A stretch of DNA of 64,000 bases, taken from contig CM069156.1 of NCBI GenBank assembly GCA_035221665.1, forward strand, positions 28,768,001 to 28,832,000. Reading direction: 5' to 3'. The DNA is from Okamejei kenojei (lineage: Eukaryota). A program made the position numbers. Shown in pieces: positions 24,229 to 27,200 of the stretch (position 1 is the stretch's first letter; each line of letters begins with the position of its first letter).

Positions 24229-27200
24229 GGCTGGGAGGAGGGGGGGGGGGGGGGGTGGCGGCAAGAAGTGCTGATCAATGGCTGTACCTAGAACCACTGA
24301 GGATATTTGTCCCCAGGTCCATGTCAAAATTCACTTGTGGAACCACATGGGAGCAGCACAAAACTAACATTTGATGGGAATTTGGTGCTACAATTTGAAA
24401 GTATCCTTGTAAATTGCATTTATTCTTGCCTTACAAATGTGGCCAAAGTCCATTTCAATGCATGGACTATTAGATACACAGCACGTGGGGCAGATTCCAT
24501 TATAAAATCTTCAGTGTCTTGTACTTGTCGCACAATTTACTATAATTAGCTTAATCCTCCGAGACATGAATGTTTGCATTTTAATATTCTCACATTTAAA
24601 CTTTGCTTTGGGGTTTTACACTAGAATGTGAAAAAGAGTCCAGTTTCAAGACAGAGGTTGGGAACCAGTCACCATATGGTCACCTACAATCTCCTACCAG
24701 TGACTATTAGGACACTGGGGGTCCTCACTGAACTACTTCAATAGCTCTGCTTGAAAAGGAGTAGCAGTGGATATAGTGGAATTTTAAAAAGCAGTGTAAG
24801 ATGGGAAGGAAACATTGCATGCAGAGTTCCTGTGTCTCCAGAACTAAAATGGAAAATGAGTCAACTTTCACCTTTTTCTTTATTTCATCAACCTGCAAGG
24901 AAATTCAGAGGGTAGCGGCTTAGAATCCAAACTCCGTCCAGCACATAAAGCAGAAGGGAAAAAAGCAAAAATAGCAAAAAGAACAACTCACAATGAAAGA
25001 TAAAAAGGAAGACAGGGGGAGAAAGAGAAAACAGTAAAGAGGAGCATTTTAGTGTACCACAAACATCAGAAGGACACCAACTGTACAGATGAATACCGGC
25101 AGAATAAAACTGATCTGGCCAGATGTGATTGAATAGAATATCAATACAATTGAAAGTTAGAGCAAAATCTGCAATGTCATGACTTCACCATAGAGGATGA
25201 CATTGACCAATCTGGAACTCTAAACTAACCATTTCCCTTGCCATCTAACATCCAGTTCATACACTAAAGCAGCATGGGGTATTAAGTACTAATTTGCTTA
25301 ACTTGGAACAGAAATTATATAGTTCAACATACTATGTAGGAAAATTAGTGATTTAGTCCCAAGGCAGTTAATTCTGCAAAAGGCCAATTGTATTGTGGTT
25401 GTGACCTACAAAATGTGGTGTAAAATACACCACGTAGTTAAATGAACTGGTTTCCAAACCCACTTTTATCATACCATTCATCTGCATGCAAAATAAAACG
25501 GCTTACAAGTATAGCAAAATCTTAAGACAGCAAGGATCAAATTCTGCACAGGAATGCAAGGTTGCTAAAGTAACTGTGGGAAGGATATAAGAACTGGATA
25601 AAATGCTGTGGTGGCTGACAATTCCAGCAGCACACCAGAAAATACTATTCAAATTTACACTGCTCAAAGTTCAGCAAAATCAACGCAGAGTATCAACTCT
25701 ATACCAAGGTTGAGATGATTTACATTTGGTAGTAGCCAAACAATGCTTGAGGCAGCCCACAATATTATCCTCCCCATTGGATAAACTAAAGGGTATAGGT
25801 TAGGTCCCCAGCTTGAAAGATTTTAATTTGTACCAACTAAATACAGCTGTATATTCAGAATTCACAAGAAATCTGGTTAAGTCAATATATACAAACAAAG
25901 TTCGAAACAAATTGAGCACACCTGAATGGCAAGTAGGAAGAATAATGGAACTTTGTAGCAAACCTTGGGTCCTGGTAGCTTGCTCCATGAGCCAACATTA
26001 CTGGTCAGTTGTTGAATGTACCAAGTGGGTGTCCACGGTAACCATGGTCAAATAGCACTCACTGACAGCACCGTTGCAACATTGGGACTAGTCTAATGAT
26101 AACCAGCTCAAATAGTTGAACAACAACTTTGCAGCAAAGGGGAAAATAGAGGGGACAGAATTTAAATTATACAAACCTTCACTGCAATCAAAGAAACAAA
26201 TCCTTGGAAGTTAGTGGATTTTTCTAGCCAAAACAAATTTATATTATGCTAAAATTAAGCACTTCAATTAAAGACCTGTAATTAACCCCAGCTTCAGGGA
26301 GAATCAGACTTTTCCATTAGTTAACAAATAACTTGCAATATTTGGCGCAAGGGCCAATCATCTGTTGCTGCTCCACGTCTAGCCTGTCCGATGGAAATTG
26401 GCTGCCAGCCAATCTTCCTAAACTTGCCTTCAGCACAGGGAATGAAAACAGGACGAGATAGCAGTGCTCAAATGCGGCACAAATCACAGGCTCAATTGAC
26501 ACTGCTTTTATTCAGCTGGCTGGCTTTGCCAATATATCAGCACCGAAGTCTCATAAACAAAATCTCGGCAATTTTACATCATGTCCCAGTCATTTAGGAG
26601 TGACTTACCAGTTAAATCGTGCCACCAGATAGTATCTATGATGAAGCTATTTGATTCATTTTATAATGTAATGCCCAACACAATCTGTGATCAGGCCACT
26701 CATCCTTCAGGTCAGTTTACTGATCACTTACCTTTGAGAGATATTCCCTCATCACCTGGATAAAGTACGGCATGGAGAAATCCATGATGTTGTGCCTCCA
26801 GGATAGCTCGAGTACAACATCTGGCCTCAGCAGGTCATAACACGTGAAGAGACAGGAAGCAAAGCACTCATTCTTTCCATCTTCCAGGAACCATTGCAGC
26901 AGCTCCTCGGCCAGTTCCGTATCCTTCGACTCCGATGCATATTGCATAGCATCCTGAAACAGAGCAAAGCCGGTCTTTGATTTGAAGAAGTAAGGCATAT
27001 ACATGACAACGCCAATGTACATGGACTGGTTTCCAAAGTCATCCAACATCCAAATACCTGCAAGATCTGTAAACGTTAACATCCAGCAATTTGTACAATG
27101 AGTATGATACCCACTCCTACAGAAAGCAAAGCCAATAGGCTAGTTTTCACGAATAGGATATTGCTCATGTACATTCTTGTCAGAGCCGACTGGCTTCTGA

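What the first reader, a model, noticed from the sequence alone, without database searches (positions are those of the whole stretch)
24872..24892. 21-nt CLTC microexon (VDEIKKK): the muscle clathrin-plaque switch exon appears to exist in a cartilaginous fish
Seen: an in-frame 21-nt AG/GT-bounded exon inside the 7.7-kb gap between exon 30 and the VDKLD exon, invisible to the ORF track. Established: mammalian CLTC has a 7-aa muscle-enriched exon 31 (VDAIKEK as I recall) in the trimerisation-region helix, linked to the switch from coated pits to flat plaques and mis-spliced in myotonic dystrophy. Inference: the switch predates the shark/bony-fish split. The peptide resembles the start of the next exon (VDKLD), and seven residues is one heptad of helix.
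Basis: partly seen in the sequence, partly recalled or inferred. Interest (0 to 1): 0.75.

Follow-up and report, generated by a model that had tools for sequence, protein, structure and literature searches.

The report
Conserved clathrin heavy-chain microexon 31
A 21-base optional exon of the clathrin heavy-chain gene, which in mammals adds seven amino acids that favour flat clathrin plaques in muscle, sits almost letter for letter in the same intron of this non-mammalian genome, so the exon is much older than the animals in which it was described.

Summary
On the minus strand, cag|GTTGATGAAATAAAGAAAAAG|gtgaaagt (24892..24872) is a 21-nt, phase-0, stop-free unit. It lies in the 7,702-nt intron between the exons for clathrin heavy chain residues 1536-1609 and 1610-1634.

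AG/GT bounds and an open frame are ordinary: 17 such 21-mers lie in this intron. Homology is what singles this one out. A 40-nt oligo published against human and mouse CLTC exon 31 matches window 24903..24864 at 36/40, against 24/40 for the next best match anywhere. The exon matches at 19/21, the donor flank at 8/8 and the acceptor flank at 9/11. The peptide VDEIKKK shares 5/7 residues with published VDAIKEK, including the core-facing V and I.

The gene is of CLTC type. It has a full QLMLT tail and a PTH2-domain neighbour.

It is therefore the orthologue of the known alternative microexon 31, a new member of a known kind. In the literature searched, the exon is reported in amniotes and frog only.

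Untested here:
- tissue-specific splicing
- presence in other fishes
- the donor's taxon

The joined spliced model was left out.

The parts
24872..24892 (-). 21-nt cassette microexon, phase 0/0, encodes VDEIKKK; orthologue of mammalian CLTC exon 31
   Evidence: Sequence. It matches the exon part of the published human/mouse oligo at 19/21 nt, and all 7 third-codon positions are identical. It shares 5/7 residues with published VDAIKEK. It is 81% purine; 31 of 7,682 21-nt windows of the intron are as purine-rich.
24864..24903 (-). 40-nt block (acceptor flank + exon + donor flank) matching the published human/mouse exon-31 antisense target
   Evidence: 36/40 identities. The next best match in the window is 24/40 on the plus strand and 22/40 on the minus strand.
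24864..24871 (-). 5' splice site intron flank gtgaaagt (AAG|gtgaaagt); sub-optimal, lacking the consensus bases at +5 and +6
   Evidence: It is 8/8 identical to the mammalian flank. It scores 7/9 against the recalled consensus, and 22 of 517 GTs in the intron score as well.
24893..25045 (-). 3' splice site (ttccttgcag) and a long pyrimidine-rich tract upstream of it
   Evidence: Pyrimidine fraction is 0.75 at -23..-4; 27 of 432 AGs are as good. It is 0.753 over -153..-4, the highest of the 432 AGs in the intron. There are 5 UCUU in the 200 nt upstream against 1.4 expected. The acceptor flank matches the mammalian oligo at 9/11.
24920..24920 (-). candidate branch-point adenosine (uucuaAg, 28 nt before the exon)
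   Evidence: Inference from the sequence only. It fits 4 of 5 positions of the recalled yUnAy pattern. A second candidate lies at -13.
24818..24823 (-). UGCAUG (RBFOX-type motif) 49 nt downstream of the donor site
   Evidence: one of only 4 UGCAUG in the 7,702-nt intron. This is a motif match only.
26732..26953 (-). upstream constitutive exon (exon 30 in the mouse/human numbering), 222 nt, phase 0/0, donor AAG|gtaagt
   Evidence: it aligns end to end with residues 1536-1609 of the 1675-residue PDB clathrin heavy chains 6sct and 6wcj (E 5e-40). Sequence.
18954..19029 (-). downstream constitutive exon (exon 32), 76 nt, starts VDKLD
   Evidence: it aligns with residues 1610-1634 of 6sct and 6wcj (E 3.1e-07). 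Sequence.
18418..18539 (-). last coding exon with stop codon; CHC17-type tail containing QLMLT
   Evidence: it aligns with residues 1636-1674 of 6sct (E 1.8e-07). Sequence.
19030..26731 (-). 7,702-nt intron that hosts the microexon
   Evidence: GT...AG bounds and length. No in-window repeat family hits it.

Best explanation
This is the orthologue of the alternative 21-nt microexon 31 of CLTC (clathrin heavy chain 1, CHC17).

When spliced in, it inserts exactly one heptad, VDEIKKK, between residues 1609 and 1610. That site is inside the tripod helix of the trimerisation domain. The valine and isoleucine, which in the mammalian isoform point into the trimer core, are kept. The other five residues are charged and allow four i/i+3 or i/i+4 salt bridges. 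The insert therefore lengthens the hydrophobic seam by two helical turns without changing the register of what follows. In mammals this stabilises the trimer and favours flat lattices (plaques) over coated pits in striated muscle.

Inclusion is probably regulated, not constitutive. The signs are:
- a deliberately weak donor site, kept identical to the mammalian one
- a roughly 150-nt pyrimidine tract upstream (PTBP1-type repression)
- a purine-rich exon body
- a UGCAUG 49 nt downstream

Shown here: the exon's anatomy, its homologous position, DNA- and peptide-level homology to mammalian exon 31, and the CLTC-type identity of the gene.

Inferred: that it is spliced in, in which tissues, by which factors, and that it has the same effect on lattice shape.
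For: Position. The flanking exons equal residues 1536-1609 and 1610-1634 of solved clathrin heavy chains. The preprint 10.64898/2026.08.20.745084 places the inserted V and I at 1610 and 1613, pointing into the trimer core (passage). PMC7480091 section 10 says the same of V and I.

Homology.
- 36/40 to the published human/mouse oligo, next best 24/40.
- Exon 19/21, and both differences are nonsynonymous (A to E, E to K).
- 7 of 7 third-codon positions are identical. In the flanking constitutive exons covered by the two published human primers, 7 of 13 are identical (my count on the alignments; the script's pooled count over three primers is 12 of 20).
- 17 of 19 intronic flank positions are identical.
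- The peptide is the only hit at 5/7 or better among 127,960 windows.

Gene identity.
- Full-length tail with QLMLT.
- PMC13676984 section 18 states that human CLTCL1 lacks microexon 31 and ends at residue 1640.
- A PTH2-domain single-exon ORF lies convergent downstream (Pfam 1.2e-47). This is as for human CLTC and PTRH2, but that map position is my recall.

Regulatory anatomy.
- Donor 7/9 and identical to mammals; best 150-nt pyrimidine tract of 432 AGs.
- UCUU at 5 against 1.4 expected; UGCAUG at +49, one of 4 in the intron.
- Exon 81% purine.
- The region folds worse than all 200 shuffles (z +2.53), so it should be open to single-strand binders.
- PTBP1 represses and QKI promotes the mouse exon (PMC8925968, passages).
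Against: - No transcript evidence of any kind was available, so inclusion, tissue pattern and regulation are untested.
- No other vertebrate genome could be searched. Conservation in other cartilaginous or ray-finned fishes and in lamprey is unknown, and the donor taxon is unverified.
- AG/GT-bounded open 21-mers are common (17 in this intron). Two other in-frame candidates have equally good crude splice scores.
- The donor lacks the consensus +5 and +6 bases.
- QKI, the reported activator in mouse cells, has no ACUAAY within 200 nt. The nearest sense-strand sites are about 450 nt upstream and 1.4 kb downstream.
- In mouse C2C12 cells, RBFOX2, MBNL and CELF knock-downs had 'relatively little effect' on the set of trafficking exons studied (PMC8925968). 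This weakens my RBFOX reading.
- YGCY is not enriched downstream: 2 in 200 nt against 2.5 expected.
- Position 6 is charge-reversed relative to mammals (E to K).
- A review's splicing graph lists the 7-aa insertion in 8 of 11 species from human to zebrafish and does not name zebrafish (PMC7617313, figure legend). The distribution among fishes may therefore be patchy.
Confidence: 0.85

Rival explanations
1. A real, conserved exon, but with a different usage in this lineage. It could be constitutive, or enriched in brain or heart rather than skeletal muscle, so that the pit-to-plaque 'muscle switch' is a later specialisation.
For: Nothing here measures inclusion. In mouse the exon is also included in heart and, at a low level, in brain (PMC13676984, passages). 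UGCAUG downstream fits neuronal as well as muscle exons. Two residues differ from the mammalian peptide.
Against: The weak donor flank is identical to that of the mammalian alternative exon, and the acceptor flank is 9/11. The long upstream pyrimidine tract is typical of repressed, regulated exons. The regulators named in mouse belong to ancient vertebrate families (general knowledge).
Confidence: 0.2
2. A conserved intronic element that is not an exon in this species. It could be a relic of the ancestral exon that is no longer spliced, or a splicing or transcription regulatory block.
For: The donor site is only 7/9, there is no expression evidence, and the exon is tiny.
Against: Frame, absence of stops, AG and GT, both core hydrophobic residues and the intronic splice flanks are all retained. 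That amounts to 36/40 across the whole distance to mammals. An unused relic would not keep this; in the neighbouring constitutive exons about half of the third-codon positions have already changed.
Confidence: 0.05
3. Chance pseudo-exon: an AG...GT open 21-mer that merely resembles exon 31.
For: There are 17 such 21-mers and 334 of 3-60 nt in the intron. 3 of the 334 have equal crude splice scores.
Against: 36/40 to the human/mouse oligo against a window-wide second best of 24/40. It is the only hit at 5/7 or better among 127,960 windows. The chance over the 17 candidates is 4.3e-5. It lies in exactly the homologous intron.
Confidence: 0.01
4. The host gene is the paralogue CLTCL1 (CHC22) or another clathrin heavy-chain copy, not CLTC, so the exon would be a paralogous feature.
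For: The exon-30 peptide is only 64/74 identical to the mammalian CHC17 chains (my count). Cartilaginous fish have CLTCL1 (PMC6548504, passage).
Against: The tail is full length with QLMLT and aligns to CHC17 residues 1636-1674. Human CHC22 diverges after residue 1634, ends at 1640 and lacks microexon 31 (PMC13676984 section 18). No convincing penultimate frame-shifting exon lies in the 414-nt last intron: 66 AG...GT candidates, none with good sites or likeness to the printed peptides. A PTH2-domain gene lies next door.
Confidence: 0.03

Closest known systems
Mammalian and chicken CLTC (CHC17) alternative microexon 31, encoding VDAIKEK (PMC7480091; PMC13676984; bioRxiv 10.64898/2026.08.20.745084)
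   Same: - Same intron, between residues 1609 and 1610
- Same length and phase
- 19/21 exon nucleotides
- Identical donor flank
- Same V and I at heptad core positions
- Same host gene type
   Different: Two residues differ (A3 to E, E6 to K), giving net charge +1 instead of 0 and four possible intrahelical salt bridges instead of one. Splicing pattern and effect on clathrin lattices are unmeasured in this species.
Mouse and rat Cltc microexon 33 / CHC17-SAS (PMC13676984; bioRxiv 10.64898/2026.08.20.745084)
   Same: It is also a muscle-regulated microexon in the C-terminal trimerisation region of the same gene.
   Different: It is 38 nt, shifts the frame, truncates the tail, lies in the last intron and is lineage-specific. 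No counterpart is seen in the window's 414-nt last intron.
Human CLTCL1 (CHC22) constitutive 40-nt penultimate exon
   Same: It is a microexon that remodels the same C-terminal domain of a clathrin heavy chain.
   Different: It belongs to the paralogous gene, is constitutive and truncates the protein. CLTCL1 lacks microexon 31 (PMC13676984 section 18).
Retina-specific 3-nt CLTC microexon between K83 and A84 (bioRxiv 10.1101/2021.09.08.459463)
   Same: It is a deeply conserved, tissue-specific microexon of the same gene.
   Different: It lies in the N-terminal propeller and adds one residue. Its intron runs off the window, and no AG-AYG-GT lies on the sense strand in the 1 kb that is present.

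Membership tests
CLTC alternative microexon 31 | Lies in the intron between the exon ending at CHC17 residue 1609 and the exon starting at residue 1610 | tested here: met
   The flanking exons align to residues 1536-1609 and 1610-1634 of PDB chains 6sct and 6wcj.
CLTC alternative microexon 31 | 21 nt, phase 0 to phase 0, no stop, AG and GT bounds | tested here: met
CLTC alternative microexon 31 | Nucleotide homology of exon and splice-site flanks to the mammalian exon | tested here: met
   36/40 to the oligo printed in PMC7480091: exon 19/21, donor flank 8/8, acceptor flank 9/11. The next best match in the window is 24/40.
CLTC alternative microexon 31 | Encodes a heptad with hydrophobic residues at positions 1 and 4 that face the trimer core | tested here: met
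   VDEIKKK keeps V1 and I4. Their role is taken from PMC7480091 section 10 and the preprint. No structure was modelled for this species.
CLTC alternative microexon 31 | Host gene is CLTC (CHC17), not CLTCL1 | tested here: met
   Full-length tail with QLMLT aligned to residues 1636-1674. PTH2-domain neighbour. No whole-protein phylogeny was made.
CLTC alternative microexon 31 | Alternatively spliced, with inclusion rising in striated muscle | not testable with these tools
   No transcript data or vertebrate sequence collection was available.
CLTC alternative microexon 31 | Inclusion stabilises the trimer and favours flat clathrin plaques | not testable with these tools
   This is known only from mammalian experiments (PMC7480091; preprint). 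The joined model was not folded.
PTBP1-repressed cassette exon | UC-rich tract upstream of the exon | tested here: met
   Pyrimidine fraction 0.753 over -153..-4, the best of 432 AGs. UCUU at 5 against 1.4 expected. Motif level only; binding is untested.
RBFOX-activated cassette exon | (U)GCAUG within about 100 nt downstream of the donor | tested here: met
   UGCAUG at +49, one of 4 in 7,702 nt. Motif level only. RBFOX2 knock-down had little effect on the mouse set of trafficking exons (PMC8925968).
QKI-activated cassette exon | ACUAAY downstream of the exon | tested here: not met
   None lies within 200 nt on either side. The nearest downstream sense-strand site is about 1.4 kb away.

The most novel reading that the evidence does not exclude
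The heptad-insertion exon and its splicing code date to the common ancestor of jawed vertebrates or earlier. The code here means the weak donor, the invariant synonymous positions and the conserved intron flanks.

On this reading the exon arose before the CLTC/CLTCL1 duplication. It was later lost from CLTCL1, and perhaps from some ray-finned fishes. Tuning clathrin between pits and flat plaques by one heptad would then be an ancestral vertebrate muscle trait rather than a tetrapod one.
Probability: 0.3. Interest if true: 0.55.

Novelty: new member of a known kind. Interest (0 to 1): 0.4.

Why it matters
The library searched documents exon 31 for amniotes and, from transcript annotation, frog. 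For amniotes, every nucleotide is reported identical in eight species (PMC13676984). The frog record is in PMC7617313.

Finding it 90% identical over exon plus splice flanks in a genome outside that set pushes its origin back. If the donor is indeed a cartilaginous fish, the origin moves to the base of jawed vertebrates, close in time to the CLTC/CLTCL1 duplication.

This finding:
- gives a dated, testable anchor for when muscle clathrin plaques acquired their dedicated isoform
- shows which two of the seven residues tolerate change and which five do not
- shows that the sub-optimal donor site is itself under constraint, a clue to how so small an exon is regulated

It is not a new kind of element. 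Gene-prediction pipelines that use RNA-seq may already carry it as an isoform; I could not check this.

Tried and rejected
1. Bounds and frame as evidence. Rejected: there are 17 equal 21-mers and 334 candidates of 3-60 nt in the intron, and 3 of the 334 have equal crude splice scores.

2. Origin of the microexon by duplication of the first heptad of the next exon. The match is 9/21 nt, reached by 9% of random 21-mers. There is no support, and the V-D-x-aliphatic likeness is equally explained by heptad constraint.

3. A structured RNA element. Rfam gives 0 matches at gathering score in 18000..28000. The 161 nt around the exon fold worse than all 200 shuffles.

4. Exonised repeat. 0 of 31 overlapping tiles of the intron have a non-self blastn hit in the window.

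5. A CHC17-SAS or CLTCL1-like penultimate exon in the last intron. Of 66 AG...GT candidates, none is convincing.

6. The retina 3-nt microexon. No AG-AYG-GT lies on the sense strand in 62963..64000, and the intron leaves the window.

7. QKI sites near the exon: none.

8. The mouse forward RT-PCR primer had no unique match (15/20, tied, at an unrelated place). It was dropped from the third-position count.

9. The ESM Atlas search on a repeat ORF gave only 'Chordata', so it does not help with the taxon.

10. A splice-site weight matrix from the gene's own exons was not built. Exact exon bounds for the other roughly 28 exons would have needed a reference protein that I could not hold locally.

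11. Not searched: other vertebrate genomes or proteins. The genome collection holds only bacteria and archaea, and the BLAST collections hold only phages, plasmids and E. coli.
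Full report
WHAT IS THERE

On the minus strand the window reads ...ccctctgaatttccttgcag|GTTGATGAAATAAAGAAAAAG|gtgaaagttgac... The 21 capitals lie at 24892..24872.

The exon upstream of it runs 26953..26732. It is 222 nt, ends AAG|gtaagt and is in phase 0 at both ends. The next exon downstream starts at 19029 after tttttag and reads GTG GAT AAG..., also in phase 0. The 21 nt are therefore in frame, carry no stop and encode VDEIKKK. The host intron is 7,702 nt, with 1,839 nt before the microexon and 5,842 nt after it.

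THE GENE

Each exon was searched on its own against the sequences of solved structures.
- The 74-residue upstream exon aligns end to end with residues 1536-1609 of the 1675-residue clathrin heavy chains 6sct and 6wcj (E 5e-40). By my count of the printed alignment it is 64/74 identical to 3qil_A.
- The next exon aligns with residues 1610-1634 (E 3.1e-07). Its first codon GTG is printed as M by the bacterial translation table and is valine in context.
- The last coding exon aligns with residues 1636-1674 and carries QLMLT.

PMC13676984 (section 18, read in full) states that human CLTCL1 diverges after residue 1634, ends at residue 1640 and lacks microexon 31. The window's full-length tail is therefore of the CLTC (CHC17) type.

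A 170-residue single-exon ORF at 4355..4867 on the plus strand is a PTH2 peptidyl-tRNA hydrolase (Pfam 1.2e-47). It lies convergent with the clathrin gene. That PTRH2 is the downstream neighbour of human CLTC is my recall, not a call.

The 414-nt last intron holds no convincing counterpart of the rodent microexon 33 or of the CLTCL1 penultimate exon (66 AG...GT candidates).

I do not take the window for human. It differs from the mammalian chains at 10 of 74 residues of exon 30, and from the human/mouse oligo at 2 of 21 exon nucleotides.

IS IT MORE THAN CHANCE?

Taken alone, AG and GT bounds with an open frame mean nothing. The intron holds 17 such 21-mers and 334 candidates of 3-60 nt.

Its splice sites are good but not unique.
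- Acceptor pyrimidine fraction at -23..-4 is 0.75; 27 of 432 AGs are as good.
- The donor scores 7/9 against the recalled consensus; 22 of 517 GTs do as well.
- 3 of the 334 candidates reach both marks.

What sets it apart is homology.

The mammalian exon-31 peptide is printed as VDAIKEK in PMC13676984 and in the preprint 10.64898/2026.08.20.745084 (passages). Of 127,960 seven-codon windows on both strands of the whole window, one reaches 5/7 identities, and it is this one. 21 others reach 4/7, and none of those has both AG and GT flanks. The analytic chance of at least 5/7 is 2.5e-6 per position. That is 4.3e-5 over the 17 candidates and 0.019 over all positions of the intron.

THE DECISIVE COMPARISON

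[quoted passage not shown] It covers the acceptor, the exon and the donor.

Slid over both strands of the window, it matches 24903..24864 on the minus strand at 36/40. The next best position anywhere is 24/40 on the plus strand and 22/40 on the minus strand. Within the block:
- the exon is 19/21
- the intronic donor flank is 8/8
- the acceptor flank is 9/11

Both exon differences change the amino acid (A to E at position 3, E to K at position 6). All seven third-codon positions are identical.

As a control, I mapped the RT-PCR primers printed in section 25 of the same paper (read in full) to the window. 3 of the 4 had a unique best match in exons 30 and 32. The mouse forward primer had none and was dropped. 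In the two human primers, 7 of 13 third-codon positions are identical to the window by my count of the printed alignments. The script's pooled figure over three partly overlapping primers is 12 of 20.

Seven of seven in the microexon against 7 of 13 in the neighbours gives a one-sided hypergeometric probability of 0.044 (my arithmetic). The sample is small, but it points to constraint beyond the protein code, as is usual for regulated microexons. Conservation of 17 of 19 intronic flank positions points the same way.

HOW IT MOST LIKELY WORKS

Established for mammals:
- The exon is included during skeletal and cardiac muscle maturation, and weakly in brain (PMC13676984, passages).
- It inserts seven residues into the tripod helix of the trimerisation domain.
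- Its V and I strengthen the hydrophobic face (PMC7480091 section 10) and point into the trimer core at 1610 and 1613.
- The insert makes the hub trimer more resistant to detergent (preprint, passages).
- Forced skipping reduces plaques and impairs muscle, and the exon is skipped in congenital myotonic dystrophy (PMC7480091, passages).

In the window, V1 and I4 are kept. The following exon starts V-D-K-L, so the core pattern continues in register. The other five positions are D, E, K, K, K, which allow four i/i+3 or i/i+4 opposite-charge pairs against one in the mammalian peptide. Seven residues are two turns of a coiled-coil helix, so the insert lengthens the seam without rotating what follows. 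This last step is inference from general helix geometry.

The joined spliced model (exon 30 + microexon + exon 32) was not assembled, searched or folded. The exons were handled one by one. At 7 residues the microexon is below the minimum of every protein search tool, so it was compared by direct counting. This leaves open what the two substitutions do to the trimer of this species.

REGULATION (INFERRED FROM MOTIFS ONLY)

- The donor lacks the consensus bases at +5 and +6 and is identical to the mammalian one.
- The 150 nt upstream are 75% pyrimidine, the highest of all 432 AGs in the intron. UCUU occurs 5 times in 200 nt against 1.4 expected. This fits the PTBP1 repression reported for the mouse exon (PMC8925968, passages).
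- The exon is 81% purine; 31 of 7,682 windows of the intron are as rich.
- A UGCAUG lies 49 nt downstream, one of four in the intron.
- The 161 nt around the exon fold less well than all 200 shuffles (z +2.53). There is thus no structured element, but an open stretch.

Against these readings:
- No ACUAAY lies within 200 nt, although QKI is the reported activator.
- YGCY is not enriched downstream.
- RBFOX2, MBNL and CELF knock-downs had 'relatively little effect' on the mouse set of trafficking exons (PMC8925968, passage).

SURROUNDINGS

Rfam finds nothing at gathering score in 18000..28000. The one tandem repeat is (CA)25 at 24177..24226, which is (UG)25 in the pre-mRNA about 650 nt downstream of the exon.

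In-window repeat families hit 51 of 128 500-nt tiles. None is hit between 16001 and 27500, and 0 of 31 overlapping tiles of the intron are hit. The 3' end of the gene is therefore a repeat-free zone within a repeat-rich window.

WHAT IS KNOWN, AND NOVELTY

[quoted passage not shown] Its Figure S2 is a supplement that I could not see.
- I found no statement about cartilaginous or ray-finned fishes. Searches.
- 'Shark' occurs 0 times in PMC13676984 and in the preprint. 'Zebrafish' occurs 0 times in PMC7480091 and PMC13676984.
- The window's peptide VDEIKKK occurs in no paper of the library.
- PMC6548504 dates the CLTC/CLTCL1 duplication to the stem of jawed vertebrates. It also mentions several alternative-transcript protein models for elephant shark and whale shark (passages). 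Database isoforms may therefore already carry this exon; I could not check this.

The finding is therefore a new member of a known kind.

LIMITS

- No vertebrate genome, transcript or protein collection was open, so conservation in other fishes and tissue-specific inclusion stayed unchecked.
- The donor's taxon could not be tested. The sequence shows only that it is none of the eight amniotes with an invariant exon 31. An Atlas look-up of a repeat ORF gave only 'Chordata'.

Noticed in passing
window 4355..4867 (+): An intact 170-residue single-exon ORF with a PTH2 peptidyl-tRNA hydrolase domain (Pfam 1.2e-47). It lies convergent with the clathrin gene and looks like the PTRH2 orthologue.
   Followed up: partly
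window 16001..27500: A repeat-free zone. 51 of 128 500-nt tiles of the window hit another place in the window by blastn. None of the 23 tiles covering the 3' UTR, the last exons and the 7.7-kb intron does. This may reflect constraint on non-coding sequence around the alternative exon.
   Followed up: partly
window 24177..24226: A perfect (CA)25 microsatellite, which is (UG)25 in the pre-mRNA about 650 nt downstream of the microexon. UG repeats are binding sites for CELF- and TDP-43-type factors (general knowledge). No link to the exon is shown.
   Followed up: no
window 24594..24620 (-) and 19251..19265 (-): Two other in-frame, stop-free AG...GT candidates in the same intron: 27 nt (CKTPKQSLN) and 15 nt (LFNNN). 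Their crude splice scores equal the microexon's. There is no homology evidence for either.
   Followed up: no
window 18560..18582 (-): A run of 23 C forms the pyrimidine tract just upstream of the acceptor of the last coding exon.
   Followed up: no
window 62963..64000 (-): The exon that starts inside the Ala84 codon (tatag|CTGGAAAAACG) is the one that follows the published retina-specific 3-nt CLTC microexon. No AG-AYG-GT lies on the sense strand in the 1 kb of that intron inside the window. The rest of the intron lies outside the window.
   Followed up: partly
window 31983..32387 (-), 8566..8742 (-), 13621..13872 (+), 11163..11390 (+): Repeated ORF fragments share a motif of the type ...RMRGDL...; they look like tails of an interspersed retroelement ORF. 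Pfam finds no family for the longest. The Atlas gives 'hypothetical protein' clusters from Chordata at score 0.94.
   Followed up: partly
window 15785..16711 (+): Three adjacent ORFs lie downstream of the clathrin stop codon. One has a weak DUF659 match (E 0.0037, below the Pfam cut-off). This may be a decayed transposase-derived sequence in or near the 3' UTR.
   Followed up: no
window 1..2000: This is the highest G+C of the window (0.543 against about 0.42). It could be a CpG-island-like region at the window's edge.
   Followed up: no
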